Of a stretch of 64,000 nt of DNA, positions 33,351 to 61,425 are shown in pieces; the stretch's first letter is position 1, and each line of letters begins with the position of its first letter. Source of the stretch: Escherichia phage vB_EcoS_ESCO30; the sequence record NC_106513.1; one strand, written 5' to 3'. The notes under the pieces are model-generated. The model made no database searches. It saw only the letters and a list, made by a program, of their open reading frames with translations, and was not told where the DNA came from. The position numbers and the translations under genes are program-made.

Positions 33351-33392
33351 ATAAAATAAAAGCCAGGTCGACTAGCAACCTGGCTGATTATC

Positions 33393-36321: not shown

Positions 36322-36397
36322 ATATTTGTAAGTTGATAAACAAGATCTCTTTGTTGATCCTCTGTTAGAAGCGAAGTACACTATAGGAGTGTTATTT

Positions 36398-37150: not shown

Positions 37151-37151
37151 T

Positions 37152-37349
37152 ATGGGAAACGTCGTACATCTACACCGTAAAACTAAAATACATCGTACTT
37201 CACTGAGTGCTGCTAATATGATTACACGTAAGGAAGGGGAAGAAAGTCCTAAGACTACCCTAGCGTGGAAAATTGTAACCTCAAATCCAAATCGGCCCTT
37301 CAATTATAATGAACTAAGTACCTCAATAGATATTCTGCTGAGAACTTAA
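37152..37349 (+). CDS. hypothetical protein
   Basis: Small ORF starting 1 nt after phoH stop (MGNVVHLHRK...). Confidence 0.35.
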   Translation: MGNVVHLHRKTKIHRTSLSAANMITRKEGEESPKTTLAWKIVTSNPNRPFNYNELSTSIDILLRT

Positions 37350-37494
37350 GTGGCCAAAAACTAGACTGACAACACAGAAGGCCTGGGTATGAAAATACTC
37401 GGGCCTTTTCTATCAGAAAATTTTATTTGCCAAATGACTGAGAATAAAGTAAACTATTTCCTAAATCCCGATAACCATAAAAAAGGAAAACCAA

Positions 37495-46745: not shown

Positions 46746-47128
46746 TAATTTAAAAGCTAGTAAATCGGTAGACGAAAGCCCAAGCATCTTACCTCGCAGC
46801 AGCGGTTGAAATACGAGGTTAAATAAGACCGCTGACCATACTATAAAGTATAATCTATTGGAGATTATGTTTATTACATCAGACATTTAATCTGACACGT
46901 AAAAACAAAGCGTCGTTGATATTACCGACACAACTTCAAAGATCAACATTTAAGTATGAAAGCTGAAAAGTTTAAAGAACTCAAACTTCTAAACTTCTAA
47001 AGCTAAAAGATGCAAAGTATTCGTTGATGATTCAAACCCTAGATCAAAGGTACATGGCTCGTAAGATATGGCCTGTGGCGCCTCTAGGCTGTTTATCGGT
47101 TTACTAGTTTCACAATTTAAAAATGTAT

Positions 47129-47157
47129 TTGCTAATTTATTAAGTTTTCTGTATAAT
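47129..47157 (+). promoter_or_regulatory. sigma70-like early promoter
   Basis: TTGCTA-17-TATAAT. Confidence 0.5.
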
Positions 47158-47187
47158 ATATTTTTAAATTGATGAAACGAGGCTATT

Positions 47188-47505
47188 ATGACTTTTCATA
47201 TTTTGATTGATGATGTGCGTAATCTTCACGGAATGGACATTATCATTCGAACCCCAGAAGCCGCTGTCGAGTTTCTGAATAAAACTGATACCACAGGCCA
47301 CTTCGTTTATATGGATAATGACTTGGCTGTAGATGGTATGGAAGGTTATCAAATTCTTCGTTTACTCTTAGAATTTGGGCAGAGACCAAAGAAAGTGGTA
47401 CTAGTAACCTCGAATCCCGTAGCTAAGCAAACTATGCGTAATGATTTGCTTGACTTGGGATACAAAGAAAACCCCAATCGTATTGAATATGATTGGCAGG
47501 AGTAA
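47188..47505 (+). CDS. hypothetical protein with receiver (CheY-like) domain-like motif pattern
   Basis: ILIDDV N-terminal acidic pair, YMDNDLAVDGMEG mid acidic pocket, VVLVTS, downstream Lys: order typical of REC domains. Confidence 0.35.
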   Translation: MTFHILIDDVRNLHGMDIIIRTPEAAVEFLNKTDTTGHFVYMDNDLAVDGMEGYQILRLLLEFGQRPKKVVLVTSNPVAKQTMRNDLLDLGYKENPNRIEYDWQE

Positions 47506-47510
47506 AAAGA

Positions 47511-47960
47511 ATGAAGGCAGCTTTGCTTTTAGTAGCTGCCCTTACCTTCAGCTTTAGTAGTCAGGCATCGCACGATGCAAAAGAAATAGATTGCATTGCT
47601 AAAAATATCTATTTCGAAAGTCGTGGTGAGGGCATAAAGGGAATGACGGCGATTGCACATGTTACTAAAAACCGTGTAAACTCCGGTAAATTCCCAGATT
47701 CCTACTGTAAAGTAGTATATCAGTCTAACCAGTTCTCTTGGGTATCTAAGAGACCAAAAGTTGATAAAACTGATGAGGCTTGGCAAACCGCTAAGAATTT
47801 AGCTAGAGTGATATACTACGTTGATTTACCACAAGATCCTACATATGGAGCACTTTACTTCCATAGTGGTAAAGATAAACCTTACTGGACAAAGAAGTTT
47901 AAGAAAACAACTAAGATTAAGGGACATACGTTTTATAAACCTGTTGTCACTAAAACTTAA
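47511..47960 (+). CDS. secreted SleB/CwlJ-like cell wall hydrolase (Hydrolase_2 family)
   Basis: Signal peptide MKAALLLVAALTFSFSSQA; IAKNIYFESRGE...AIAHVTKNRV motif block. Confidence 0.55.
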   Translation: MKAALLLVAALTFSFSSQASHDAKEIDCIAKNIYFESRGEGIKGMTAIAHVTKNRVNSGKFPDSYCKVVYQSNQFSWVSKRPKVDKTDEAWQTAKNLARVIYYVDLPQDPTYGALYFHSGKDKPYWTKKFKKTTKIKGHTFYKPVVTKT

Positions 47961-47968
47961 AAATTTAC

Positions 47969-47997
47969 TTGCTTAAATACTTAAATTTCCGTATAAT
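47969..47997 (+). promoter_or_regulatory. sigma70-like early promoter
   Basis: TTGCTT-17-TATAAT. Confidence 0.5.
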
Positions 47998-48028
47998 ACT
48001 TCCATAAATTAATGAGAGGAAGCGAAAT

Positions 48029-48198
48029 ATGAAATCAGTTGTAATTATTGGTGTTAACACTCGCGGTATTCGTACTACGAAAACTGTTAAAACTTCTAAC
48101 GTTGCTGAGATCACTACGAACCCTAAAAAGTTTGATTTCGCCAAAGTCTCAGCAGTTATGACAGAACAATCTTTTAACCAAGCGTTAGGAATGAAATA
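48029..48198 (+). CDS. hypothetical small protein
   Basis: 56-codon ORF with GAGGAAG SD, coupled to next gene. Confidence 0.3.
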
Positions 48199-48642
48199 AT
48201 GGAAGAGAATATTTTAGATGTTTTGCGTAGAGCTTTGCAGGATTCTAAGTTTAATGGTTCTGATAAAGAAGTCGCTAAAAGCTATCAGACCATAATCGGG
48301 GATCTTCAGCGTATTGATAAAGATTTCATCACTTCTGAACAATTTGTGTCTTATCTCAAAGCTCAACTAAAAAGCATTAACCAGATGAAAGCTAAACTTC
48401 ATGGTCAAGATCTTGATAGTTATAGCTTGCAGTCCGCTCAGTATGAATACATTCTAAATAAGTGGTTGCAGGAGTATCTGCCTCCTCAGTTATCTGATAC
48501 TGAGATTCGTAAATACTTTGCAGAATTAGTTAAGCTAAACCCTGGAATTACAAAAGGTATGCTGATGAAAGCGATTAAGGAAGAATTTCCTGGGCGTTAT
48601 GATGGTGGTACTGCTGCTCAGATTGCTGGCGAATTTAATTAA
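48199..48642 (+). CDS. GatB/YqeY-domain-like protein
   Basis: 147 aa; YLPPQLSDTEI and KGMLMKA...G..DG motif pattern resembling bacterial YqeY. Confidence 0.45.
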   Translation: MEENILDVLRRALQDSKFNGSDKEVAKSYQTIIGDLQRIDKDFITSEQFVSYLKAQLKSINQMKAKLHGQDLDSYSLQSAQYEYILNKWLQEYLPPQLSDTEIRKYFAELVKLNPGITKGMLMKAIKEEFPGRYDGGTAAQIAGEFN

Positions 48643-48650
48643 AAATTTAT

Positions 48651-48679
48651 TTGCTAAATGCTTATAAATTCTGTATAAT
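48651..48679 (+). promoter_or_regulatory. sigma70-like early promoter
   Basis: TTGCTA-17-TATAAT. Confidence 0.5.
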
Positions 48680-48902
48680 ATATTCATAAATTAGAGAACA
48701 GCGAGCCGATTACGCTGAGTGCAGAATCCCAACCGGAGCGCATTGAATAGAGTCGGTGGGTTAGTTGGAAAACTAGTACACAGGGGGCGGCAATCCCGGT
48801 TAGTGGCTAGAACGTGTAAAATGAGGCGTCTGAAACCTCTCCCCTAAACTCTTCTCTAATTTACTGATAGTGGGGTGTGGAAATCACTTATGTAGTAACA
48901 CT

Positions 48903-48974
48903 GCCGATCTAGTATAAACGGTATTATCAAGCCGTAACTGGTGGAAGATGTAGGTTCGAATCCTACGGTCGGTA
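48903..48974 (+). tRNA. tRNA-like element (anticodon not assignable)
   Basis: 7-bp acceptor pairing (2 G-U) and consensus T-arm GTAGG-TTCGAAT-CCTAC; D and anticodon arms do not fold canonically. Confidence 0.3.
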
Positions 48975-49476
48975 AGAACTGGATAACTGGTGCTTTTAAC
49001 GTAAAAGCTTCCGAGGTTAGTTGCGCACTGCCTAAACCACGCGGTAGTTGGTTCCAGACTAACCAACCAGTCTGCTGAATAGTTTTATTACGATTTAACT
49101 ATGTCCAGGCATAAAGAAGAACTTTAGAAGGTATTCTAGGTAGTGAAGTTTTTCCTCCATATCGGAGTAGTTTTTCAAGCTATCCACAAAGTGGGAAATG
49201 ATGGCATGAGAGATGCCACTAATGGTGCACAATAGCACAGGTAATTCGCGATAACCCCTGTTGAGTAGCAGCAAAAAGGTGGGGAGTCATGACCCTAACC
49301 TAACCGAGTCCTCAGTATACCGCAGGACATAACCACTAAGTCACCTTGACTTAAACTGGAAAATAATAGACGTTACTGTATTTTGTCTTGAAATACTTAA
49401 TGAGTGAGACTTATGACTCTCCCGGTATCGTCTGTATTTTTAAGAGTTTTTACGAGAGTTCTTAAAAATACTTAAA

Positions 49477-49548
49477 CGGGGTGTAGTCTAAGGGAGAGGC
49501 AGGAGTCTTCTAAATTCCTTTATGCAGGTTCGAATCCTGTCACCTCGG
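49477..49548 (+). tRNA. tRNA-Arg (anticodon TCT)
   Basis: Hand-folded cloverleaf; loop CTTCTAA; T-arm GCAGG-TTCGAAT-CCTGT; encoded CCA. Confidence 0.6.
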
Positions 49549-49585
49549 CCAATTTTATTAACTGTAACTAAGACAAAGGAAATAT

Positions 49586-50533: not shown

Positions 50534-50557
50534 TACCCACATGTAATATTCGAAGTA

Positions 50558-50596
50558 AGCCCTGCGTTCCCTGGAGAGCGCAGGGCTTTTCTGTAT
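50558..50596 (+). terminator. rho-independent terminator
   Basis: GCCCTGCG-loop-CGCAGGGC hairpin followed by TTTTCTG. Confidence 0.65.
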
Positions 50597-50607
50597 TTAA
50601 GGTAAAA

Positions 50608-53081: not shown

Positions 53082-53168
53082 CGGAAGAATAGCATAACGG
53101 TATTGCAGCAGATTGCTAATCTGTCGGTTTGAAATATAGCCTTGTGGGTTCGATTCCCACTTCTTCCG
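53082..53168 (+). tRNA. tRNA-Ser (anticodon GCT), type II
   Basis: Loop TTGCTAA; long variable arm; T-arm GTGGG-TTCGATT-CCCAC; encoded CCA. Confidence 0.6.
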
Positions 53169-53177
53169 CCAGATTTT

Positions 53178-53252
53178 GGTTCTCAAGCTCATATGGTATG
53201 AGCACCCGGCTCATAACCGGAAGGTACGTAGGTTCGAATCCTCGGGGAGCCA
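53178..53252 (+). tRNA. tRNA with CAT anticodon (Met or Ile-lysidine)
   Basis: Acceptor and D-arm fold well; loop CTCATAA; T-stem has mismatches. Confidence 0.45.
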
Positions 53253-53275
53253 CCAACTTAATTAGGGGATTACAA

Positions 53276-53464
53276 GTGGAATTATACATAGTTTATGTTG
53301 TGTTCATTCAAGATAGAGAATACCCTGATGAATATAAAAAAGGATATAGATTAGCCAGAGCTACCTCTGAAGCCCAAGCTATGGATAAAGTGGCAGATTA
53401 TATGATTACGGTAGAAAACGTACACTATATCGACTACCTTGAAGCCTCAAAAGTAATTGACTAG
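53276..53464 (+). CDS. hypothetical small protein (GTG start, uncertain)
   Basis: Portion of the 53129-53464 ORF not overlapping tRNAs; AGGGG SD 7 nt upstream of GTG. Confidence 0.25.
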   Translation: MELYIVYVVFIQDREYPDEYKKGYRLARATSEAQAMDKVADYMITVENVHYIDYLEASKVID

Positions 53465-53473
53465 GGAGACTAT

Positions 53474-53659
53474 ATGTCTAAGTTTCAAGAACTCAAGCAA
53501 GAGCTAGAAGAATGTGCCTGCCCTGAATGTCTGGGGATTGGAGAAAGTTCTGATGCAGAAGCAGGAGATACTTTTTGCAATATCTGGGTTTGCCCAAATT
53601 GCAATGGTACAGGTATTAATCCTAACTGTGGTATTTCTCTAGATATTGAAAGAGGATAA
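53474..53659 (+). CDS. hypothetical Cys-rich zinc-ribbon-like small protein
   Basis: 61 aa; CACPEC...CPNCNGTG cysteine pairs. Confidence 0.4.
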   Translation: MSKFQELKQELEECACPECLGIGESSDAEAGDTFCNIWVCPNCNGTGINPNCGISLDIERG

Positions 53660-53761
53660 TACCTGTGAAACTAAAAGATTATTATATTGGTTGGTTTGTG
53701 GGACTAGTAGTAGGATTTTCACTAGGCTATAATATGTATCAACTAATAAACTGATTACACG

Positions 53762-53835
53762 GGGGGTGTAATCGAATTGGCATAGGTACTGGACTTAAAA
53801 TTCAGGTTTTGTGGGTTCGAATCCCACCACCCCTA
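53762..53835 (+). tRNA. tRNA with TAA anticodon (Leu-type anticodon, short variable loop)
   Basis: Acceptor GGGGGTG/CACCCCT; loop CTTAAAA; T-arm GTGGG-TTCGAAT-CCCAC; encoded CCA. Confidence 0.45.
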
Positions 53836-54013
53836 CCAAATTAAGGAAATAAGATGTATAGACATCCACCTCCGCCAACACGTCGTTCTAGGGAAGTCAT
53901 CCTTATGGAATTGACTAAAAACTTCAAGGCAACTCTTGAAGATAGAGATCTAGGCACGGATGAAGATATTGATTTTATTTGTAGACTATTAAAGATGAAA
54001 CTGGAGAAACAAC

Positions 54014-54220
54014 ATGGCTAATCCTGAAATTACCGCACAACGTTTCATGCTTAAAGGCATGATTGCTGAGGCAGGTATAACTCAAGAGGTTGCAGATTTT
54101 CATAAGCAATTTCTTGACATTATAACTCTAGCTAAAGAGACTGGAGAAAAAGAACATGGAGCGGCAATTATGGCTATATCTCTTATTAGTCTAGACTTGG
54201 CTGAAGAATCTGGAGTTTAG
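54014..54220 (+). CDS. hypothetical protein
   Basis: 68 aa ORF. Confidence 0.4.
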   Translation: MANPEITAQRFMLKGMIAEAGITQEVADFHKQFLDIITLAKETGEKEHGAAIMAISLISLDLAEESGV

Positions 54221-54250
54221 CTCCTCCAAACAGAATTTTTAAAAATGTAC

Positions 54251-54280
54251 TTGCCTTTTGCTTTAAATTTCTGATATAAT
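54251..54280 (+). promoter_or_regulatory. sigma70-like early promoter
   Basis: TTGCCT-18-TATAAT plus conserved leader. Confidence 0.45.
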
Positions 54281-54310
54281 AGTTATATAAATTGATGAAG
54301 GAGTTAACGA

Positions 54311-54586
54311 ATGCAAAATCGTGTTATAGCAGCTGGTATTGAAAGTGCAATCTGTAAATCCTGGGAAGGCTGGGAAGGTGAGATTGAATGGCTTTATTTC
54401 TATGATGTAGAACTTCTGCCGGAAGTTAAAGCTAAATGTGTTAAAGCTGGCATGGCTCCGGATGCAAAAGCTGATATTGATATTTCAATGTCTGAACTTA
54501 AAGGTCGTGTAGTTACCGTTAGTAATGAGGGGGAAGAAGTTTTCGAACTTCCATTCTCCTTAACTGTCACTCCTAAGTTCGACTAA
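54311..54586 (+). CDS. hypothetical protein
   Basis: 91 aa ORF with GGAG SD. Confidence 0.45.
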   Translation: MQNRVIAAGIESAICKSWEGWEGEIEWLYFYDVELLPEVKAKCVKAGMAPDAKADIDISMSELKGRVVTVSNEGEEVFELPFSLTVTPKFD

Positions 54587-54622
54587 CTAATACAGCACTG
54601 AGCAAGTTCTTTAAAATTTGAC

Positions 54623-54651
54623 TTGCTCAGTGCCTTAAAACTTGGTATAAT
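54623..54651 (+). promoter_or_regulatory. sigma70-like promoter inside terminator-like hairpin
   Basis: TTGCTC-17-TATAAT; -35 lies within GCACTGAGCAAG...CTTGCTCAGTGC inverted repeat. Confidence 0.45.
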
Positions 54652-54716
54652 AGTTATCTAATTTGGAAACATATTTAAAAGTGTTTAAATTAGAATTTTT
54701 GAATACTTCTAAATAT

Positions 54717-54801
54717 GGGCGTTTATTCCGTAAGTGGTAGCGGAGGGGATTGTAAATCCCTGGTCATTGCGACTCGAGTGGTTCGACTCCATTAACGCCC
54801 A
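54717..54801 (+). tRNA. tRNA-Tyr (anticodon GTA), type II
   Basis: Acceptor GGGCGTT/AACGCCC; loop TTGTAAA; long variable arm; T-arm AGTGG-TTCGACT-CCATT; encoded CCA. Confidence 0.6.
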
Positions 54802-54821
54802 CCAAATTAAAGGTAAAGGAT

Positions 54822-55313
54822 ATGTATATTGATCGGATAATTCAAGAAGCTGCAAATAGAGGTATTATACAGTTGGGTTCACCAGCTGATATAAATAAAG
54901 ATCTAATATTAGAAAGCCTCACATTTGGTACAGCTAACTTTGGTCGCGATAGTAATCGTCGATATAGCTTGAAGTTATCTGCACTATCTTTTATCAAGTA
55001 TAACAAAAGTATTGGAGAAAAATCCAGCTGTGGTTTTATTTACGCAATAACTAACCCAGCTTGGGATAACTATGTAAAAATTGGTATGTCTTCTGATCCT
55101 AAAACAAGATTAAGAAATTACCAAACCTATTCTCCTTTACGTGATTATAAGTTAATACATTGGTCATTTTGGTTTAATGCTAGAGAAGCGGAGAAAATGC
55201 TTCATAATAGCTTTCCTGAACGGCTTAATGAATGGGTAGTGTTAGACAGAGGTGTAGACGAAATACTTTCCGAGTTTAACAATTTATCCAATAAGCAATT
55301 TAAGTCCTGTTAG
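54822..55313 (+). CDS. T5orf172/GIY-YIG-related domain protein
   Basis: GFIYAITNPAWDNYVKIGMSSDPKTRLRNYQT motif block. Confidence 0.55.
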   Translation: MYIDRIIQEAANRGIIQLGSPADINKDLILESLTFGTANFGRDSNRRYSLKLSALSFIKYNKSIGEKSSCGFIYAITNPAWDNYVKIGMSSDPKTRLRNYQTYSPLRDYKLIHWSFWFNAREAEKMLHNSFPERLNEWVVLDRGVDEILSEFNNLSNKQFKSC

Positions 55314-55377
55314 ACAAACTGGTAAAGTCACTACCCTTTCAAGGTAGGATTTGCGGGTTCGATCCCCGCACAGGACG
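55304..55377 (+). tRNA. tRNA-Glu (anticodon TTC)
   Basis: Acceptor GTCCTGT/ACAGGAC; loop CTTTCAA; T-arm GCGGG-TTCGATC-CCCGC; 5' end overlaps stop codon of upstream CDS. Confidence 0.6.
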
Positions 55378-55386
55378 CCAATTTCT

Positions 55387-55462
55387 GCATTCCTAGAGTG
55401 TTACTGGACAGCATGTCGGTCTCCAAAACCGTACGGTCTAGGTTCGAGTCCTAGTAGGTTTG
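55387..55462 (+). tRNA. tRNA-like gene, possible Trp (CCA anticodon), acceptor stem unresolved
   Basis: T-arm CTAGG-TTCGAGT-CCTAG and CGGT-CTCCAAA-ACCG anticodon hairpin; acceptor pairing not found by eye. Confidence 0.3.
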
Positions 55463-55471
55463 CCAAAATTT

Positions 55472-55543
55472 GCACCTTTAGCTGAGATGGATTAGCGCTT
55501 GCCTGAAGAGCTTGAGAGGTTCGTTCGATTCGAACAGGGTGCA
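55472..55543 (+). tRNA. tRNA (possibly Phe, GAA), anticodon stem imperfect
   Basis: Acceptor GCACCTT/AGGGTGC; D-arm and T-arm GTTCG-TTCGATT-CGAAC fold; loop CTGAAGA with two stem mismatches. Confidence 0.4.
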
Positions 55544-55557
55544 CCAATTTGAAGGAG

Positions 55558-55836
55558 ATGCTGATGCATCCTGAAAACTTCTTTATTTACTGCGCGGATA
55601 AGTCGCTGAAACGTAGAATTAATAAAGTCTATCATTATCGTGCTAGTCAACAGCCTTATGTATATGCTTTTGACGGTGATCACATCCCACTAGAACAATT
55701 ATCTTGTGATTACATGATATTGAAGAACTTTGACGAGACGAAGATCTCAAGCGTTCATAATCGACAGAATCCTTTAACGTGGAAATATAAGAGGAAAAAG
55801 AAAGGCATCAAATTCTTAAAAAATGTAGTTGCTTAG
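55558..55836 (+). CDS. hypothetical protein
   Basis: ORF beginning after tRNA; GGAG SD upstream. Confidence 0.4.
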   Translation: MLMHPENFFIYCADKSLKRRINKVYHYRASQQPYVYAFDGDHIPLEQLSCDYMILKNFDETKISSVHNRQNPLTWKYKRKKKGIKFLKNVVA

Positions 55837-55857
55837 TTTCCAAAAGTTCTGTATAAT
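55829..55857 (+). promoter_or_regulatory. sigma70-like early promoter
   Basis: TTGCTT-17-TATAAT; overlaps 3' end of upstream ORF. Confidence 0.5.
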
Positions 55858-55886
55858 AATTACATAAATTGAACTGGAGAAGCGAC

Positions 55887-56111
55887 ATGACAGAACAAGA
55901 ATTGAATGAACGTAAGTTGGTAATGCTTCGCTTACTAAATATTTTCTCTGGTATGGATGGTGGAATTGACTTTGTTCATCTACGTTCTTTCGTAGAAGAA
56001 GCCGAGGGCGAATCTATCACTAAAATCCTTAAACACATGGGATTACTTTTAGACGCTGCTAATGTGGCTACTGAATATAAACTAGAAGATCTACCAGAGC
56101 GTGTTAAATGA
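55887..56111 (+). CDS. hypothetical protein
   Basis: Start at MTEQEL after GGAGAAG SD. Confidence 0.45.
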   Translation: MTEQELNERKLVMLRLLNIFSGMDGGIDFVHLRSFVEEAEGESITKILKHMGLLLDAANVATEYKLEDLPERVK

Positions 56112-56299
56112 AACGATTAGTTAGATTTAAGTGTTGTGGTTCCGAGCACATTTTCACACATCTTCGTGAATTTAAAATGTGCGATTGTGGTAAATCAGGC
56201 TATGACTCAGGAGATGGGTTCTACACCCGTACTCTAGGGAACTTCAATGATCTAGAATTTGAAGATCTCGAAAAACAAGATAAATCGACCGTTGGCTGA
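56108..56299 (+). CDS. hypothetical Cys-containing small protein
   Basis: 63 aa; CCGSEH...CDCG motif; translationally coupled. Confidence 0.4.
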   Translation: MKRLVRFKCCGSEHIFTHLREFKMCDCGKSGYDSGDGFYTRTLGNFNDLEFEDLEKQDKSTVG

Positions 56300-56358
56300 A
56301 TGGCTTAGGCGAAGGATTGCAAATCCTTTTTATGTGAGTTCAAATCTCATGCGGTCGT
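56286..56358 (+). tRNA. tRNA-Cys (anticodon GCA)
   Basis: Acceptor CGACCGT/GCGGTCG; loop TTGCAAA in AAGGA/TCCTT stem; T-arm GTGAG-TTCAAAT-CTCAT; overlaps 3' end of upstream CDS. Confidence 0.6.
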
Positions 56359-56513
56359 CCAATTTGCTGAAAGAATTGTTAAATCAATTCAGGCACGCGT
56401 AGGAACACTGTCTCCGTAATTGAAAGATGAGGCACGGTTTGGAGAGGTATGCCGCTACACGCTACGGTGCTAACTCCGTCTAGGTGAAAATCCTAGTCAG
56501 CAATATAAATTTA

Positions 56514-56593
56514 GGGTCGTTAGCCAAGCGGTTTGGCGGTGGACTGTTAATCCATGTCGAAAGACAACGTAGGTTCGAATCCTACACGGCCCG
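56514..56593 (+). tRNA. tRNA with GTT (Asn) anticodon and extended variable arm
   Basis: Acceptor GGGTCGT/ACGGCCC; D-stem GCCA/TGGC; loop CTGTTAA; 13-nt variable hairpin GTCGAAAGAC; T-arm GTAGG-TTCGAAT-CCTAC. Confidence 0.5.
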
Positions 56594-56698
56594 CCAAATT
56601 CTGTGTAGAGTTAAGTAAACCGGTAGCCAACCAGCTATCATTGCTGACATCGAATTCAGCCACAGATACCATTTTCATTAATAATTGAGGAAACAAGC

Positions 56699-56884
56699 AT
56701 GTCCAAGAATGTAATTGCACAGCTAGAAGTTCATCGTGATAGCACTATCAACAATATTGAAGTTGAGAAGAAATACATCGAAGAACTTAAACATGATATA
56801 CTAGTAAGTCTCAATCGTCTTAATGTACGAAAAGAGTTTCTTAAAGAACTTAATGCAGCTATTGAAAAACTCAAAGCTGAGTAA
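56699..56884 (+). CDS. hypothetical coiled-coil small protein
   Basis: 61 aa ORF with GAGGAAA SD. Confidence 0.4.
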   Translation: MSKNVIAQLEVHRDSTINNIEVEKKYIEELKHDILVSLNRLNVRKEFLKELNAAIEKLKAE

Positions 56885-56893
56885 ATAAATTAT

Positions 56894-56967
56894 GCGACCG
56901 GGGCTGGCTTGGTAATGGTACTCCCCTGTCACGGGAGGGAATGTGGGTTCAAATCCCATCGGTCGCG
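56894..56967 (+). tRNA. tRNA-Asp (anticodon GTC)
   Basis: Perfect acceptor GCGACCG/CGGTCGC; CTCCC-CTGTCAC-GGGAG anticodon arm; T-arm GTGGG-TTCAAAT-CCCAT; encoded CCA. Confidence 0.65.
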
Positions 56968-56995
56968 CCAAATTAATTTAGTATGAGAATATACT

Positions 56996-57343
56996 ATGCG
57001 TAATGCCAAAGAAGAGTTGTTACTTGCCTTAAAAAATACTAATTCTGAAGTTAAGTGTATTAAAATAGAATTCGGGTATTATGGGGATAAAAAAGTTTGG
57101 GTATTACCTTTAGGTTATACAGAAGAAGACATTGAGGATTTTCTTAATAACCTAGACTTTGAATATGATTCTGGATATGGTGGACAATTACTTTATGGTA
57201 ATGTATGGTTTGCCGACGGAACTTGGCTAGAACGTGGGGAATATGACGGTGCTGAGTGGTGGGAATACAAGGCCACCCCGGCAATCCCAGAGGAATGCCG
57301 AACAATTAATGGTGAAGTAGACAATACTTTACGGTTAAACTAA
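56996..57343 (+). CDS. hypothetical protein
   Basis: 115 aa ORF. Confidence 0.45.
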   Translation: MRNAKEELLLALKNTNSEVKCIKIEFGYYGDKKVWVLPLGYTEEDIEDFLNNLDFEYDSGYGGQLLYGNVWFADGTWLERGEYDGAEWWEYKATPAIPEECRTINGEVDNTLRLN

Positions 57344-57351
57344 TAAAATTT

Positions 57352-57424
57352 CAGTGCGTAGCGCAGTTGGTAGCGTGGGATCCTTGGATGATTCGGGTCG
57401 CAGGTTCGAGTCCTGCCGCACTGA
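57352..57424 (+). tRNA. tRNA-Pro (anticodon TGG)
   Basis: Acceptor CAGTGCG/CGCACTG; GGATC-CTTGGAT-GATTC anticodon arm; T-arm GCAGG-TTCGAGT-CCTGC; encoded CCA. Confidence 0.65.
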
Positions 57425-57433
57425 CCAAACAAT

Positions 57434-57506
57434 TGCGGGTGGGAGGCATAGAGTTCTTCTTAGTCTCATAAGCTAAGTAAGTCCAGGGCAGTACTGGAAC
57501 CCGCTA
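57434..57506 (+). tRNA. tRNA-like gene with CAT anticodon and non-canonical T-loop
   Basis: 6-bp acceptor pairing; loop CTCATAA; T-arm TCCAG-GGCAGTA-CTGGA lacks TTCRA consensus. Confidence 0.35.
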
Positions 57507-57527
57507 CCAATTTCAAGAAAAACGCAG

Positions 57528-57556
57528 TTGCTTAATGCTTAATTTCTTGTTATAAT
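57528..57556 (+). promoter_or_regulatory. sigma70-like promoter driving an untranslated leader into tRNA genes
   Basis: TTGCTT-17-TATAAT; followed by GATGAGGAGAAATCCTCATC hairpin, no ORF before tRNA-Ala. Confidence 0.5.
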
Positions 57557-57794
57557 ATTTATATAAATTGATGAGGAGAAATCCTCATCATAGTTCACTA
57601 AGGTATTAGCTCGACCTAGGACTGGCTGCCAAAAAGCACGATCCCTACTATTTGGGAGAAGTTCTAGATTAGTCCACTAGATTCAGCGGCAACTGAATAG
57701 TGTATTGGGTTTGCGAGATGACGCAGTTCCTTCCGCTCGAAGCGAAGGTGCTGTAGTTACGCCGAGCTAATAGCCTTAGTAAACTAAAGAATTT

Positions 57795-57866
57795 GGGCGA
57801 ATAGTGTCAGCGGGAGCACACCAGACTTGCAATCTGGTAGGGAGGGTTCGAGTCCCTCTTTGTCCA
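57795..57866 (+). tRNA. tRNA-Ala (anticodon TGC)
   Basis: Acceptor GGGCGAA/TTTGTCC (G-U pairs); D-stem GTGT/GCAC; CCAGA-CTTGCAA-TCTGG; T-arm GAGGG-TTCGAGT-CCCTC; encoded CCA. Confidence 0.65.
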
Positions 57867-57874
57867 CCAAATTC

Positions 57875-57956
57875 GGGGCTATGCTGGAACTGGTAGACAA
57901 TACGGCCTTAGATTCCGTAGCTTAAATGCGTGGGAGTTCGAGTCTCCCTAGCCCCA
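57875..57956 (+). tRNA. tRNA-Leu (anticodon TAG), type II
   Basis: Perfect acceptor GGGGCTA/TAGCCCC; loop CTTAGAT; long variable region; T-arm GGGAG-TTCGAGT-CTCCC; encoded CCA. Confidence 0.5.
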
Positions 57957-57976
57957 CCAACTCATAGGATTTATGT

Positions 57977-58561
57977 ATGCAGTTTGTACCAGTAAAAGAT
58001 GCACCAGGGTATTTAGTAAATGAGGCGGGGGATGTGTTCTCTACATTTACTAATAAAGTTTTATCAAGATATATAGTTGATGGATACCCTGCTGTAAAAT
58101 TACAGATAAATGGTAAACAAACCTCTGTACTTATACACCGAATTATTTCTCATGTATTTGGGGACTTATATAATCTATTTGACCCTGAATTAGAGGTAGA
58201 TCATAAGGATAGAGATAGACTGAATCTATCTAAAGATAATCTTCAAGTCCTATCAAAAATAGAACATCAGAGGAAAACTAATAAAGATAATGGGTGGTCT
58301 GACAGTAGAGTACCTTGCCCCCTATGTGGGAGTCTAATGCTTCAGAGATCTGTAACATGTACAAATTGTAAGCCAAAACCTACAGGAAGGTTGATAAAAC
58401 CAGAATTGTCTTTAGACGACATAACTGAAAAGGTTTTATTAATGGGGTGGGTTAAGGCAGCTAAAGAGTTAGAAGTATCAGAGTCCACTTTGCGCAGGAG
58501 GTATACTAAACTAACTGGATTAAGCCCAAAAGTATTAACAGAACAACGGAAAAGCAAATAG
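57977..58561 (+). CDS. HNH homing endonuclease (NUMOD-like N-terminus + HNH)
   Basis: ...LIHRIISHVFGDL...EVDHKDRDRLNLSKDNLQVLSKIEHQRK... HNH core; embedded in tRNA cluster. Confidence 0.65.
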   Translation: MQFVPVKDAPGYLVNEAGDVFSTFTNKVLSRYIVDGYPAVKLQINGKQTSVLIHRIISHVFGDLYNLFDPELEVDHKDRDRLNLSKDNLQVLSKIEHQRKTNKDNGWSDSRVPCPLCGSLMLQRSVTCTNCKPKPTGRLIKPELSLDDITEKVLLMGWVKAAKELEVSESTLRRRYTKLTGLSPKVLTEQRKSK

Positions 58562-58638
58562 ACTGGCGACTAAACCCGATTGGAAATCGGTTGAGTAATA
58601 GCAATATTGCCTTATGGGTTCAACTCCCATCTTTTCCG
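58548..58638 (+). tRNA. tRNA-Ser (anticodon GGA), type II
   Basis: Perfect acceptor GGAAAAG/CTTTTCC; ACCGA-TTGGAAA-TCGGT anticodon arm; long variable arm; T-arm ATGGG-TTCAACT-CCCAT; overlaps 3' end of HNH CDS. Confidence 0.5.
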
Positions 58639-58648
58639 CCAAACAAAT

Positions 58649-58735
58649 GGAAGATAGGACGTAGTGGTACGTAACTGGTCTTGAAAACCAGCCCGCTGTA
58701 GTGATACGGTGATGGTTCGACTCCATTATCTTCTG
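58649..58735 (+). tRNA. tRNA-Ser (anticodon TGA), type II
   Basis: Acceptor GGAAGAT/ATCTTCT; perfect CTGGT-CTTGAAA-ACCAG anticodon arm; long variable arm; T-arm GATGG-TTCGACT-CCATT; encoded CCA. Confidence 0.6.
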
Positions 58736-58754
58736 CCAACTTATAGGGTAATAT

Positions 58755-58937
58755 ATGTCTTTAACGAAAACTGTGAAGGTTACACTAACTGATGGCACAG
58801 AGTTTAGTGCACAAATAACCTTACTAGAAGACGGTTATTGGGAAGTATATCTTCCACACGTTAATTCTACTGGTAGAGGATGGACTCAACAACAGGCTAT
58901 TGTTGATGCTTTAAATGAGGCTTCCGCTGGTTTATAA
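58755..58937 (+). CDS. hypothetical protein
   Basis: 60 aa ORF. Confidence 0.4.
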   Translation: MSLTKTVKVTLTDGTEFSAQITLLEDGYWEVYLPHVNSTGRGWTQQQAIVDALNEASAGL

Positions 58938-59304
58938 AAATTCTTGGAATATGCCGGAATTGGTAGACGGGACTGCCCAATAGGTTTACTAGGAACATCC
59001 ACTCCTAGAAATATACCTTAAAAGCGGTTGAGTTAAATGGTCTAACTCATGAAGGTTCAAGTCCTTCTGCTTCTTGATACATCTATGGCTCAAAGTGTAA
59101 CGGTGCTATTTGATGCTCTTGGAAAGACTTTCCCGACAGGCGTTCGGGGGTAAGCTTCTGAGGCTAGAATAGAAGAGTTTCTGAGAGCCGCCACAATTGA
59201 AAATTCGTACTCGTCTTGAGCTGCGTGCAATAGGAGATAACTTGATTAGTATTCTAGAACATGCTAATTGAGGATGGTTTCGCTAACCCTGCGAGTTTTC
59301 AATT

Positions 59305-59378
59305 GTGGCTATATCATAATTGGTTAATGATCCTGATTGTGAATCAGGCCTATGTGGATTCGAATTCCACTAGCCACC
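59305..59378 (+). tRNA. tRNA-His (anticodon GTG)
   Basis: Perfect acceptor GTGGCTA/TAGCCAC; CCTGA-TTGTGAA-TCAGG anticodon arm; T-arm GTGGA-TTCGAAT-TCCAC; encoded CCA. Confidence 0.65.
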
Positions 59379-59406
59379 CCAAATTAACTTAAATAGGAAA
59401 TAAAAT

Positions 59407-59604
59407 ATGGCTGATTTCTGCAAACAATGCTCCATTGATATGTGGGGCAGAGATACTGGTGATCTTTCTGGTTTGATTACAGAAGCCGAAGTCAAAGAAG
59501 GTTATGGTGCAGTTGTGATTTGCGAAGGATGCGGAGTTATTCGAGTAGATCATGAAGGCAAACGTTTAGAAGAACCGGAAAATTTAGGAGAAACAAATGA
59601 GTAA
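59407..59604 (+). CDS. hypothetical Cys-containing small protein
   Basis: 65 aa; CKQCS...CEGCG cysteine pairs. Confidence 0.4.
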   Translation: MADFCKQCSIDMWGRDTGDLSGLITEAEVKEGYGAVVICEGCGVIRVDHEGKRLEEPENLGETNE

Positions 59605-59833
59605 TGCTTTAATTAGTGAAATTATGTTAACACGTCTTGCAGAACTGCAAACTCTTCGAGATGAATCTCAGAATAACTTAGCCTATCATAAACAGATGGT
59701 AGATACTCTTACTACTCGTATTGAAACTTACGAGCGTGATATTGCAGCATTACAAGCTCTTTTCTCTGTATCAGCACCAGATACATTAGAACAGCCTGCC
59801 GTATCTCAGCCGGTAGAAACAGCATCTAGTTAA
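59597..59833 (+). CDS. hypothetical protein
   Basis: 78 aa ORF overlapping previous by 8 nt. Confidence 0.4.
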   Translation: MSNALISEIMLTRLAELQTLRDESQNNLAYHKQMVDTLTTRIETYERDIAALQALFSVSAPDTLEQPAVSQPVETASS

Positions 59834-59842
59834 TAGCATTCT

Positions 59843-59915
59843 TGGAGTGTAGATCAATTGGCAGATCGTCGGCCTCTGACTCCGAAGGTTCCTGGTTCGA
59901 TCCCAGGCACTCCAG
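59843..59915 (+). tRNA. tRNA-Gln (anticodon CTG)
   Basis: Perfect acceptor TGGAGTG/CACTCCA; loop CTCTGAC; T-arm CCTGG-TTCGATC-CCAGG; encoded CCA. Confidence 0.5.
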
Positions 59916-59924
59916 CCAAACAAT

Positions 59925-59997
59925 TGGAGAGTAGTGTAACGGTTAGCACAACGGCCTTTGACTCCGTTAATGGTAGGTTCGATTCCTCCTTCTCCAG
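59925..59997 (+). tRNA. tRNA-Gln (anticodon TTG)
   Basis: Acceptor TGGAGAG/TTCTCCA; D-stem GTGT/GCAC; loop CTTTGAC; T-loop TTCGATT; encoded CCA. Confidence 0.5.
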
Positions 59998-60008
59998 CCA
60001 AACAATAA

Positions 60009-60081
60009 GCGGTTAAGCACACGGGTTGTGTCGCAGGCCTTCCAAGCCTCGCTGAGTAGGGTTCGATTCCCTCTAGCCGCT
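60009..60081 (+). tRNA. tRNA-Gly (anticodon TCC)
   Basis: Acceptor GCGGTTA/TAGCCGC; AGGC-CTTCCAA-GCCT anticodon hairpin; T-loop TTCGATT; encoded CCA. Confidence 0.5.
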
Positions 60082-60100
60082 CCAACTTTAAGGAAACGTT

Positions 60101-60322
60101 ATGCACGTTTTTGAGTTTCGTAATAAAAGTACCAATAAACGAGTTATTGTTATTGGGGAAACATATCGAGCATATGAACAAACTGACGGCTCTGTTATCT
60201 TGAATGATGAGAAAGGGGGTTTTAGCTTTTATCCAGAAGAAACGTATGAGGGGTTTCGTACTAAGTTTCTTTTACCAGACTGGCTAGCAGTAGCCGAGCA
60301 ACGAGAATCCGAAGATGGCTGA
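60101..60322 (+). CDS. hypothetical protein
   Basis: 73 aa ORF. Confidence 0.4.
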   Translation: MHVFEFRNKSTNKRVIVIGETYRAYEQTDGSVILNDEKGGFSFYPEETYEGFRTKFLLPDWLAVAEQRESEDG

Positions 60323-60479
60323 TAACCTAAAATTAAGAGTTGACAAACAAAAGAAATACGTTGAGGTTGAATTAGGCGAAGAACGCTTAAAGCTAACTTT
60401 CGAGTTTCTTCAGCAGTTGGCTATGACAGTTATGACTGATAAGTCTCCTGTTATTGAAAAAGAAATCCCGTTGAAATAA
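60315..60479 (+). CDS. hypothetical small protein
   Basis: 54-aa ORF overlapping previous stop (ATGGCTGA), coiled-coil-like. Confidence 0.3.
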   Translation: MADNLKLRVDKQKKYVEVELGEERLKLTFEFLQQLAMTVMTDKSPVIEKEIPLK

Positions 60480-60489
60480 CGGGATTATC

Positions 60490-60561
60490 GCTCCTAAAGC
60501 ATTGCTGGCGATGCAGCTGCCTTGTAAGCATCTGAACCGGGTTCGATTCCTGGTGGGAGCA
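60490..60561 (+). tRNA. tRNA-Thr (anticodon TGT)
   Basis: Acceptor GCTCCTA/TGGGAGC; D-arm GCAT...ATGC; loop CTTGTAA; T-arm CCGGG-TTCGATT-CCTGG; encoded CCA. Confidence 0.55.
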
Positions 60562-60579
60562 CCAAATTTAAAAATTCAT

Positions 60580-60608
60580 TTGCCTTCTCTCTTATTTCTT
60601 GTTATAAT
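60580..60608 (+). promoter_or_regulatory. sigma70-like early promoter
   Basis: TTGCCT-17-TATAAT plus conserved leader. Confidence 0.5.
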
Positions 60609-60638
60609 ATTTATATAAGTTAATGAGAGGGAAACCAA

Positions 60639-60932
60639 ATGAAACGTTATCTTTCTGTTGTGTTCCAAACTGGTGGTCAACGCTATACCTATGAATTTCC
60701 TAGCTCTTGGAAGATCAAAGAAGGTGATCAAGTAGTAGTGTTAACACCGCGTGAGGGTTTCAAGGTAGTAACGGTTAAGCAAGTATTTCCAAAAGAGCAT
60801 GAACCAGCTAAAGGCATTCGCTATAAGATGATTCATGGTGTAGTTCGTCAAGTACCACGAGTGGAGGTCGAAATCAAAGTAGATAAAGATGGTAAACTTA
60901 AATATACCTCTTGCTTAGACGAGTTGCTATAA
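60639..60932 (+). CDS. hypothetical protein
   Basis: 97 aa ORF with GAGAGGG SD. Confidence 0.45.
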   Translation: MKRYLSVVFQTGGQRYTYEFPSSWKIKEGDQVVVLTPREGFKVVTVKQVFPKEHEPAKGIRYKMIHGVVRQVPRVEVEIKVDKDGKLKYTSCLDELL

Positions 60933-61138
60933 TGAGGATTACTTTTACAGAAAAGATCATGAGTAATGGTGTTATGATCATTACCGCATGGGATGGCAAT
61001 CAGTGGTGTAGTGTTTCAGGTATTAAGCCTGAAAAACAAACACTAGAAAATATCTCAAAGATTAAGCGAAGAATGGCAGAACGTGCACGACTTCCAGGTG
61101 CACCTAGAAATGGCAAACGTTCTGCTGTAAAATGTTAA
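60932..61138 (+). CDS. hypothetical protein
   Basis: Start at MRITFTEK overlapping previous stop (TAATG). Confidence 0.4.
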   Translation: MRITFTEKIMSNGVMIITAWDGNQWCSVSGIKPEKQTLENISKIKRRMAERARLPGAPRNGKRSAVKC

Positions 61139-61139
61139 T

Positions 61140-61213
61140 GCTTCGGTAGCTTAGCGATCTAAAGCACTCGGCTGATAACCGAGAGATCGGGGGTTTAAAT
61201 CCCTCCCGGAGTA
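61140..61213 (+). tRNA. tRNA-Ile (anticodon GAT)
   Basis: Acceptor GCTTCGG/CCGGAGT; D-stem GCTT/AAGC; perfect CTCGG-CTGATAA-CCGAG; unusual T-loop TTTAAAT; encoded CCA. Confidence 0.55.
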
Positions 61214-61312
61214 CCAAATTTAGGAATTAAGACTATGCGTCCAGGAAAGTTTAAAAAAGCTAATTGGACTAAAGAGTATAAAGAATACTTACTTAGCCTA
61301 ATAAAACATAAT

Positions 61313-61385
61313 AGTTAGTTGGCAGAGTGGTTATGCACCTCCTTCATACGGAGCGACTACAGTGGTTCAAATCCACTACTAACTA
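61313..61385 (+). tRNA. tRNA with CAT anticodon (Met or Ile-lysidine)
   Basis: Perfect acceptor AGTTAGT/ACTAACT; loop TTCATAC; T-arm AGTGG-TTCAAAT-CCACT; no encoded CCA. Confidence 0.5.
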
Positions 61386-61425
61386 TCATTAAAAGAGCTA
61401 GAGATAGCTAACTTTAGGAGCAGCT

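What the first reader, a model, noticed from the sequence alone, without database searches (positions are those of the whole stretch)
48199..48642. GatB/YqeY-like domain protein at the entrance to the tRNA cluster
The 147-aa product resembles bacterial YqeY (YLPPQLSDTEI and KGMLMKA...G..DG pattern). This domain is found in the tRNA-interacting tail of GatB amidotransferase. Its position immediately upstream of about 25 phage tRNA genes suggests a role in tRNA handling, for example protecting or charging phage tRNAs.
Basis: partly seen in the sequence, partly recalled or inferred. Interest (0 to 1): 0.5.

Follow-up and report, generated by a model that had tools for sequence, protein, structure and literature searches.

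The report
Free-standing YqeY-like protein, T5-like phage
The ORF is a real, non-catalytic YqeY-family protein of a T5-like phage that databases already annotate (often wrongly, as "tRNA amidotransferase"); relatives in other large phages sit near tRNA genes more often than control genes do, but its function is untested.

Summary

The tRNA idea is partly supported. In 42 independent phage lineages, 16 have a tRNA within 2 kb of their YqeY-like gene, against 3 of 31 control-gene lineages (p = 0.006). RNA ligases, NAD-salvage enzymes and CCA-adding enzyme recur nearby. The link is not universal: about a third of lineages show none of it. It is not significant against one control taken alone. Nobody has shown that a free-standing YqeY binds tRNA.

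The most likely role is a non-enzymatic RNA/tRNA-binding accessory of the phage tRNA-maintenance region. The domain call is already in GenBank, PHROGs and Pfam, and the tRNA-charging speculation was published for phage pf16. Verdict: already known, modest interest.

The parts
47969..47997 (+). Promoter-like site TTGCTT-17-TATAAT upstream of the two-gene unit; it corresponds to the T5 early promoter P-D/E 33
   Evidence: Sequence read. T5 annotates a promoter at the homologous position, just upstream of T5.082. It falls below the threshold of the consensus scan (3 of 6 matches in the -35 hexamer).
48029..48199 (+). 56-aa ORF (DUF7616 / phrog_5077; T5.082 ortholog). Its TAA stop overlaps the ATG of the YqeY-like gene (TAATG), which implies translational coupling
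   Evidence: overlap; phrog_5077, E 3.9e-41; PF24592 DUF7616, E 4.7e-33.
48199..48642 (+). YqeY-like protein gene, 147 aa (T5.081 ortholog): the finding itself
48199..48483 (+). N-terminal helical subdomain (residues 1-95; helices 5-18, 23-39, 46-66, 69-74, 77-93). It carries a family-invariant T..GDLQR..K motif but has otherwise diverged strongly between T5-like subgroups
   Evidence: Secondary structure of the model; alignment A1; DNA comparison with T5.
48484..48639 (+). C-terminal three-helix subdomain (residues 96-147). It is the equivalent of YqeY-C and the GatB/GatE tail domain, carries the signature Q-L-(S/T)..E-I-R...G..MK..K....G.YDG, and is the most conserved part of the protein
   Evidence: Pfam match at residues 90-142; invariant columns in A1; GatE tail hit by profile positions 74-138; about 85% nucleotide identity to T5 in this third only.
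48651..48679 (+). Strong sigma-70-type promoter TTGCTA-17-TATAAT, 9 nt after the stop codon (T5 promoter P16-17). It drives the rnaX-like RNA and tRNA-Arg
   Evidence: 10 of 12 matches; T5 annotation; identical sequence in T5.
48686..49476 (+). Equivalent of T5 'rnaX' (stable RNA of unknown function). About 98-100% identical to T5 except for a 147-nt insertion at about 48698-48846. The 5' end is inferred from the promoter, not mapped
   Evidence: T5 annotation; alignment; weaker homologs follow the YqeY gene in Pectobacterium phages My1 and DU_PP_V.
48902..48975 (+). tRNA-like element inside rnaX (ARAGORN calls it 'tRNA-Ser, anticodon ACT'; Rfam tRNA 36.8 bits against a gathering score of 29)
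   Evidence: the same element is in T5.
49477..49551 (+). tRNA-Arg (TCT), the first ordinary tRNA downstream
50557..50588 (+). First intrinsic-terminator-like hairpin downstream (13-bp stem plus T tract). No terminator lies between the YqeY gene and this site, so read-through into rnaX, tRNA-Arg and the SPFH gene is possible
   Evidence: T5 annotates a bidirectional terminator at the homologous place.
53083..61387 (+). Main phage tRNA array (20 tRNA genes)
47188..47505 (+). Upstream neighbour with a cREC_REC domain (predicted cyclic-phosphate-processing receiver domain, tied to RNA-repair contexts in the literature)
   Evidence: PF20274, E 1.4e-14; PMC7824862.

Best explanation
The gene encodes a free-standing, non-catalytic member of the YqeY family. 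It has two small all-helical subdomains, and the C-terminal three-helix one is homologous to the tRNA-docking tail of GatB/GatE. It is probably expressed early in infection from a T5-type promoter, and its start overlaps the stop of a 56-aa DUF7616 protein. It ends 9 nt before the promoter of a stable RNA (rnaX) and tRNA-Arg, at the edge of the phage tRNA region. I think it most likely acts as an RNA-binding accessory. By analogy with the GatB/GatE tail, which docks on the D-loop at the tRNA elbow, the conserved G..MK..K....G.YDG face would dock on tRNA or tRNA-like RNA. That would help keep the phage's own tRNA supply working (maturation, presentation to host enzymes, repair or shielding) in a host (E. 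coli/Salmonella) that has no YqeY of its own. Shown here: gene, family, fold, absence of a catalytic domain, local gene and promoter layout, and statistical linkage to tRNA genes in other phages. Inferred only: RNA binding, which RNA, and the benefit to the phage. The identity layer is about 0.95 certain. The functional layer is about 0.4, and the confidence given is for that layer.
Against: No free-standing YqeY has been shown to bind tRNA. The D. radiodurans module worked only in cis and had no effect in trans. The protein is mildly acidic to neutral (pI 5.3-6.6 in most family members), and it lacks the Lys-rich motif and extra helix that GatB uses for tRNA contact. About a third of phage lineages have no tRNA gene, RNA ligase, CCA-adding enzyme or peptidyl-tRNA hydrolase within 10 kb. 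Named phages PA5oct, muut, RBC57, phiN3 and Aeromonas G2 have no tRNA within 12-20 kb. Enrichment against the SleB control alone is not significant (p = 0.06-0.3), control lineage numbers are small, and the protein neighbour families were discovered in the YqeY loci themselves, which biases that part of the comparison. The same fold serves as a protein-protein bridging subunit of mitochondrial complex I (AIM41/NUQM), so the fold does not imply RNA binding.
Confidence: 0.4

Rival explanations
1. It is a translation or ribosome-associated factor rather than a tRNA factor. In bacteria yqeY is typically co-operonic and co-regulated with rpsU (ribosomal protein bS21). The phage would supply a YqeY to a host that lacks one, to tune ribosomes for phage mRNAs.
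For: rpsU-yqeY co-regulation and a suggested functional link to translation (PMC13374519; PMC12054373). E. coli lacks yqeY. The phage protein is closest to the free-standing bacterial YqeY structures, not to GatB.
Against: The phage context is tRNA genes, RNA-repair and NAD-salvage genes, not ribosomal proteins. No ribosome binding has been shown for any YqeY.
Confidence: 0.2
2. It is the protein partner of the adjacent stable RNA (rnaX, with its embedded tRNA-like element) and forms a phage ribonucleoprotein of unknown role.
For: The gene ends 9 nt before the rnaX promoter. The YqeY-then-rnaX order is kept in T5 and, more weakly, in My1 and DU_PP_V, where the proteins are only about 38% identical. 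rnaX is about 98-100% conserved between this phage and T5, while the N-terminal two-thirds of the protein gene has diverged. There is preliminary evidence that YqeY binds the large OLE RNA in Halalkalibacterium.
Against: Adjacency within a single phage family is weak evidence. rnaX was not detected beside YqeY in Providencia PSTCR5-type or Vibrio Demerecviridae, nor in RSP15. The OLE-YqeY interaction is described as preliminary or unpublished.
Confidence: 0.1
3. It is a protein-protein adaptor or regulator unrelated to RNA, for example binding a host enzyme or a phage partner such as the coupled DUF7616 peptide. This would parallel the way AIM41/NUQM bridges domains of mitochondrial complex I.
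Against: This does not explain the enrichment near tRNA arrays and RNA ligases. The most conserved surface is the one homologous to the tRNA-docking face of the GatB/GatE tail. DUF7616 was seen only in T5-like phages, so it cannot be a general partner.
Confidence: 0.15
4. It is a tRNA-dependent amidotransferase (subunit B), as RefSeq, PHROGs and several GenBank records name it, converting Glu-tRNAGln or Asp-tRNAAsn.
For: Only the name and the distant similarity of the last ~65 residues to the GatE tail.
Confidence: 0.02
5. It is a recombination-related exonuclease, as many GenBank and UniRef records of T5-like phages call it.
For: The name only.
Against: No nuclease family was hit in Pfam, PHROGs or NCBIfam, and the fold is YqeY. 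This looks like a propagated annotation error.
Confidence: 0.01

Closest known systems
Free-standing bacterial YqeY (B. subtilis 1NG6; C. jejuni 8XJE; V. parahaemolyticus 8XJG; Pfam PF09424)
   Different: Only 15-21% identity. The single sequence falls just below the Pfam cut-off. The gene is phage-borne, in a tRNA/stable-RNA context rather than the bacterial rpsU operon. It has a T5-family-specific invariant GDLQR..K motif in the N-subdomain.
T5.081 of phage T5 and PHROG 1460 ('tRNA amidotransferase'); identical proteins in GenBank named 'YqeY-like protein' or 'GatB/YqeY domain-containing protein'
   Same: Ortholog at the same genome position: SleB hydrolase, 56-aa ORF, YqeY, promoter, rnaX, tRNA-Arg, SPFH gene. 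Proteins 100% identical to this one are already deposited.
   Different: 50% identity to T5.081 itself, with divergence concentrated in the N-terminal two-thirds. The window has a 147-nt insertion in rnaX.
Tail domain of GatB/GatE (tRNA-dependent amidotransferase)
   Same: The C-terminal three-helix subdomain is homologous (GatE 1zq1_C 554-625, E 0.0087). The conserved G..MK....G..DG stretch corresponds to the hydrophobic pocket that docks the tRNA D-loop (PMC2811023).
   Different: There is no cradle (catalytic) domain, no GatB Lys-rich motif or extra helix, no PF02637 hit, and no GatA/GatC context. GatB is not among the top structural matches.
C-terminal YqeY module of Deinococcus radiodurans GlnRS
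   Same: A YqeY-type module used without catalysis as a tRNA-affinity enhancer (PMC1865053). This is the clearest functional precedent.
   Different: That module is fused to the synthetase and works only in cis. The phage protein is free-standing.
gp65 of Pseudomonas phage pf16 and other phage YqeY-like proteins (Aeh1 ORF245c, phage G gp509, Atu_ph07, nt-1, Serratia BF)
   Same: [quoted passage not shown]
   Different: 15-30% identity, different phage families, and variable context.
AIM41 / NUQM (mitochondrial YqeY homolog; bridging subunit of Pichia pastoris complex I)
   Different: It acts as a protein-protein bridging subunit of a respiratory complex, only 8% identity, and is eukaryotic.

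Membership tests
YqeY family (PF09424), free-standing type | Significant full-length sequence homology to family members | tested here: met
   hhalign of A1 against A3 (members scoring 40-78 bits on PF09424): 99.8%, E 6.5e-30, 138 columns. Profile A2 against 1ng6, 8xjg and 8xje: E 1.8e-15 to 1.3e-9, full length.
YqeY family (PF09424), free-standing type | Single sequence reaches Pfam's curated gathering score (an operational criterion) | tested here: not met
   25.4 bits against a cut-off of 27, E 1.7e-5, residues 90-142 only. This is a narrow miss. A 99%-identical cluster representative (P0001) and several relatives carry precomputed PF09424 hits.
YqeY family (PF09424), free-standing type | Two-subdomain all-helical fold superposable on YqeY crystal structures | tested here: met
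YqeY family (PF09424), free-standing type | Stand-alone protein of about 140-150 aa with no fused catalytic domain | tested here: met
   147 aa, and no other domain in Pfam, PHROGs or NCBIfam.
YqeY family (PF09424), free-standing type | C-terminal signature LP.QL(S/T)..E ... G..M(K)......G..DG | tested here: met
   Invariant Q97, R104, M123, K127, G132, Y134, D135 and G136 in A1. They align to the same residues of 1ng6.
YqeY family (PF09424), free-standing type | Operon linkage with rpsU (bS21): typical of bacterial members, not defining | tested here: not met
   No bS21 homolog in the phage YqeY loci searched.
YqeY family (PF09424), free-standing type | Shared biochemical activity | not testable with these tools
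   The family's activity is itself unknown.
GatB/GatE subunit of tRNA-dependent amidotransferase | Catalytic cradle domain (GatB_N) | tested here: not met
   The protein is 147 aa and has no such Pfam hit even at E <= 10.
   Not listed at E <= 10. HMMER filters may drop very weak matches.
GatB/GatE subunit of tRNA-dependent amidotransferase | Tail-domain homology | tested here: met
   Met for the C-terminal subdomain only: GatE 1zq1_C residues 554-625, E 0.0087 with profile A2.
GatB/GatE subunit of tRNA-dependent amidotransferase | GatB-specific Lys-rich motif (KxGKxK) on an extra helix of the tail | tested here: not met
   The C-subdomain of the model has three helices (100-113, 119-129, 136-145). 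The loop reads KLNPGITKG, with no KxGKxK; the motif is defined in PMC2811023.
GatB/GatE subunit of tRNA-dependent amidotransferase | GatA and GatC (or GatD) partners encoded alongside | not tested
   No systematic HMM scan of the whole phage genome was made. None is annotated in T5-like records near the gene.
Recombination-related exonuclease (name used in many GenBank records) | A nuclease domain or fold | tested here: not met
   No nuclease family hit; the fold is YqeY.
Phage tRNA-maintenance / RNA-repair gene neighbourhood (defined by context) | tRNA genes or RNA-repair genes within a few kb | tested here: met
   In the window: tRNA-like element 260 nt, tRNA-Arg 835 nt and the main array 4.4 kb downstream; cREC domain 0.7 kb and exoribonuclease 2.4 kb upstream. 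Across phages: 28/42 lineages against 11/31 controls.

The most novel reading that the evidence does not exclude
Phage YqeY-like proteins are dedicated RNA-binding parts of phage tRNA-maintenance regions. They would dock on the elbow of tRNAs or tRNA-like RNAs, such as the element in T5 rnaX. This could shield or present phage tRNAs during the contest with host tRNA-cleaving defences (PARIS, PrrC-type nucleases), or hand broken tRNAs to the co-located RNA ligases. If true, this would give the first function for the widespread, still uncharacterised free-standing YqeY family.
Probability: 0.15. Interest if true: 0.6.

Novelty: already known. Interest (0 to 1): 0.28.

Why it matters
The function of free-standing YqeY proteins is still unknown in bacteria, mitochondria and phages. 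The phage copies offer a simple genetic system for asking what they do: a non-essential-looking early gene in well-studied T5-like phages, next to tRNA genes that are now known to counter host tRNA-cleaving defences. Practically, the analysis shows that the RefSeq and PHROG name "tRNA amidotransferase" and the GenBank name "recombination-related exonuclease" should both be replaced by "YqeY-like protein". It also gives a first controlled estimate of how often phage YqeY genes travel with tRNA and RNA-repair genes. It is not a new discovery: the domain call and the tRNA speculation both exist already.

Tried and rejected
1. NCBIfam gave no hit.
2. The word-indexed homolog search returned only T5-like relatives. 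The exhaustive profile search was needed to reach other clades.
3. The search for related loci with the very diverse alignment A2 failed for lack of a conserved stretch. The narrower A3 worked.
5. A ribosomal link was tested by searching for bS21 next to phage YqeY genes; none was found.
6. Viable T5 deletion mutants were checked for whether the gene is dispensable. The published deletions (30661-38625 and 29191-32442) stop short of T5.081 (41617-42051), so they say nothing, assuming the paper uses the same coordinate system as NC_005859.
7. The 'histidyl tRNA synthetase' label on the gene directly upstream of YqeY in phage muut looked like support, but it has no Pfam backing and rests on a PHROG name only, so I do not count it.
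8. The SleB-hydrolase control showed a fairly high tRNA proximity of its own (8/20 lineages within 10 kb), so the enrichment is not significant against that control alone. SleB is itself often near YqeY (T5-like phages, L043, L056), so it is not fully independent.
9. The search for a universal small partner ORF failed. DUF7616 is T5-specific, and the coupled downstream ORFs in other phages are unrelated to each other.
10. Rfam found nothing in rnaX apart from the tRNA-like element.

Full report
**What is there.** The window is a T5-like phage of the Demerecviridae. Region 47000-50600 is 98.3% identical to Escherichia phage IrisVonRoten, and 461 phage records match it. ORF 48199..48642 (+) has an ATG start and a TAA stop and encodes 147 aa. 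It is a genuine gene:
- tblastn finds full-length homologs in 453 phage records at 30-100% identity.
- It matches PHROG 1460 end to end (E 3e-47).
- It is the ortholog of T5.081 (50% identity) in the same gene order: SleB-type hydrolase, 56-aa ORF, this gene, promoter, rnaX, tRNA-Arg, SPFH gene, terminator.

**Family and fold.** The single sequence hits Pfam YqeY (PF09424) at E 1.7e-5. The score is 25.4 bits against a cut-off of 27, and only residues 90-142 match. PF02637 (GatB_Yqey) is not hit, and NCBIfam gives nothing. Profiles settle the question:
- A 22-sequence family alignment (A1) aligns collinearly with B. subtilis YqeY 1NG6 over residues 11-139.
- An exhaustive search of 1.84 billion representatives gives 860 hits. 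The more distant ones are full-length PF09424 members scoring 40-78 bits.
- hhalign between the T5-type family and those members gives 99.8% probability, E 6.5e-30, over 138 columns.
- A broader phage profile (A2) hits all three YqeY crystal structures at E 1.8e-15 to 1.3e-9. Through its C-terminal part only, it also hits the tail domain of archaeal GatE (1zq1_C 554-625, E 0.0087).

The protein is therefore a free-standing YqeY. It is not an amidotransferase subunit, because it lacks the ~290-residue catalytic cradle domain and the GatB Lys-rich motif and extra helix described in PMC2811023. The widespread names "tRNA amidotransferase" and "recombination-related exonuclease" are not supported.

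**Local anatomy.**
- A T5-type early promoter (TTGCTT-17-TATAAT, 47969-47997) precedes a 56-aa DUF7616 ORF.
- That ORF's stop overlaps the YqeY start (TAATG), which implies translational coupling.
- Nine nucleotides after the YqeY stop lies a strong promoter (TTGCTA-17-TATAAT, 48651-48679; T5 P16-17).
- That promoter heads the equivalent of T5 rnaX, a stable RNA of unknown function. It contains a tRNA-like element (48902-48975; Rfam tRNA 36.8 bits) and is followed directly by tRNA-Arg (49477-49551).
- The first terminator-like hairpin is at 50557-50588.
- The main tRNA array (20 genes, 53083-61387) begins 4.4 kb downstream, beyond a minus-strand gene block. So "at the entrance to the tRNA region" is fair, but "immediately upstream of about 25 tRNAs" overstates it.
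- Upstream neighbours include a cREC_REC domain protein and an Rv2179c-like 3'-5' exoribonuclease. The cREC domain is a predicted cyclic-phosphate-processing enzyme linked to RNA ligases in phages (PMC7824862).

Compared with T5, rnaX and tRNA-Arg are about 98-100% identical apart from two indels and one variable patch. Within the YqeY gene, only the last third is well conserved.

**Testing the tRNA inference.** I asked whether YqeY-like genes in other phages also sit with tRNA genes.

Named phages gave a mixed picture:
- Vibrio phages VPT02 and Quinn: the gene lies inside the tRNA array.
- Ralstonia RSP15: it lies 668 nt after a 20-tRNA array and just before a P-loop kinase, phosphoesterase and Rnl1-type ligase set.
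- Xanthomonas XaC1: it lies two genes after a tRNA nucleotidyltransferase.
- PA5oct, muut, Caulobacter RBC57, Sinorhizobium phiN3 and Aeromonas G2: no tRNA within 12-20 kb.

For a less hand-picked sample, I took 66 loci from the viral contig collection. I ran ARAGORN on each and collapsed them to 42 lineages at 60% protein identity. I then put two control genes from this same window, thymidylate synthase and SleB hydrolase, through the identical pipeline. Results per lineage representative:

| Feature near the gene | YqeY | ThyA | SleB | Pooled p |
|---|---|---|---|---|
| tRNA within 2 kb | 16/42 | 0/11 | 3/20 | 0.006 |
| tRNA within 500 nt | 7/42 | 0/11 | 0/20 | 0.017 |
| Any tRNA within 10 kb | 25/42 | 9/31 (pooled) | | 0.009 |

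Against SleB alone the differences are not significant (p = 0.06-0.3), and SleB is not a fully independent control.

A census of neighbours found other recurrent genes near YqeY and rarely or never near the controls:
- RNA ligases of three families (PF09414 types: 7/42 vs 0/31).
- NAMPT (8/42 vs 0/31).
- CCA-adding enzyme, peptidyl-tRNA hydrolase and a DUF2828 "RNA-binding protein".

These protein families were discovered in the YqeY loci, so that comparison is biased upward. No bS21 gene was found next to any phage YqeY.

In sum, the linkage to tRNA and RNA-repair regions is real but moderate. It holds for roughly two-thirds of lineages at 10 kb and about 40% at 2 kb.

**How it most likely works.**
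- Established: the GatB/GatE tail, homologous to the C-subdomain here, docks on the tRNA D-loop through a conserved hydrophobic pocket flanked by basic residues (PMC2811023).
- Established: the YqeY module fused to D. radiodurans GlnRS raises tRNA affinity without contributing to catalysis, but only in cis (PMC1865053).
- Preliminary: bacterial YqeY may bind the large OLE RNA (PMC12054373).
- Established: E. coli has no yqeY (PMC13374519), and T5 tRNAs protect the phage from the tRNA-cleaving PARIS system (PMC11464382).

The most conserved part of the phage family is the stretch corresponding to that pocket: M123, K127, G132, Y134, D135, G136. From this I infer a non-enzymatic RNA-binding accessory that supports the phage's tRNA supply. 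My confidence in that functional layer is about 0.4.

Against it:
- No free YqeY has been shown to bind tRNA.
- The protein is acidic to neutral.
- It lacks GatB's Lys-rich element.
- A third of lineages lack the context.
- The same fold is a protein-protein bridge in complex I (AIM41).

The rivals are a ribosome-linked role, an rnaX partner, a protein adaptor and the two database names. They are scored separately in the report.

**Novelty.** Proteins 100% identical to this one are already in GenBank, named "YqeY-like protein" or "tRNA amidotransferase". The family is PHROG 1460. A GatB/YqeY domain was noted in phage Aeh1 in 2006 (PMC1524935). [quoted passage not shown] The finding is therefore already known. 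What this check adds is a firm fold and family assignment, rejection of two misleading names, and a controlled measure of the tRNA and RNA-repair linkage.

Noticed in passing
window 48686-49476 (tRNA-like element at 48902-48975): This is the equivalent of T5 'rnaX', a roughly 0.8-kb stable RNA of unknown function with its own strong promoter. It contains a tRNA-like element (ARAGORN 'Ser-ACT'; Rfam tRNA 36.8 bits) and runs directly into tRNA-Arg. It is about 98-100% identical to T5, although the flanking YqeY gene is only 50% identical at protein level. The window has a 147-nt insertion (about 48698-48846) and T5 has an 87-nt insertion. Weaker homologs follow the YqeY gene in Pectobacterium phages My1 and DU_PP_V.
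   Followed up: partly
window 47188-47505 (+): A 105-aa protein with a cREC_REC domain (PF20274, E 1.4e-14; T5.084 ortholog). The literature predicts this domain to be a cyclic-phosphate-processing phosphoesterase linked to RNA ligases and NAD/ADP-ribose conflict systems. Homologs were found in the Demerecviridae loci I held.
   Followed up: partly
window 45099-45800 (+): An Rv2179c-like 3'-5' exoribonuclease domain protein (PF16473, E 5.8e-8; T5.087 ortholog, annotated only as 'exonuclease'). It lies 2.4 kb upstream of the YqeY gene and is also present in the Vibrio Demerecviridae loci.
   Followed up: no
window 48029-48199 (+): A 56-aa DUF7616 / phrog_5077 ORF whose stop codon overlaps the YqeY start (TAATG). 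I saw it conserved only in T5-like phages. It could be a partner peptide.
   Followed up: partly
window 47493-47960 (+); also L056 10694-11257, L043 about 19794, L003 19364-19879: A SleB-type cell-wall hydrolase or endolysin lies next to or near the YqeY-like gene in several otherwise unrelated phages: T5-like phages, two uncultivated contigs, and PA5oct (adjacent but on the opposite strand). In the control set, SleB genes also lay near tRNA arrays fairly often (8/20 lineages within 10 kb). I have no explanation for this.
   Followed up: partly
L002 (Ralstonia phage RSP15) 9301-22988: A compact arrangement: a 20-tRNA array, then the YqeY-like gene (20001-20420), a weak HD-domain protein, a P-loop kinase of the AAA_33/polynucleotide-kinase type (21518-22060), and a T4 Rnl1-type RNA ligase homolog (22029-22988; GenBank labels that ORF 'metallophosphoesterase'). 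It looks like a complete tRNA supply-and-repair region. GenBank annotates the YqeY-like gene only as hypothetical.
   Followed up: partly
L006/L057 (phiN3), L031, L068, L069, L072 and other YqeY loci: NAD-salvage genes recur within 10 kb of phage YqeY genes: NAMPT (8/42 lineages against 0/31 controls) and an NMN-adenylyltransferase/Nudix fusion.
   Followed up: partly
window 48199-48642 compared with L001 4001-4435: There is a sharp change in conservation inside the gene. The first ~290 nt are close to saturated divergence between this phage and T5. The last ~150 nt are about 85% identical, and the adjoining non-coding rnaX is nearly identical. This suggests either a recombination boundary or very different constraints on the two subdomains.
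   Followed up: no
L004 (phage muut) 19416-19985: The gene directly upstream of the muut YqeY-like gene is labelled 'histidyl tRNA synthetase' in RefSeq and PHROG 4806. It is only 190 aa and has no Pfam hit, so the name is probably another over-annotation.
   Followed up: partly
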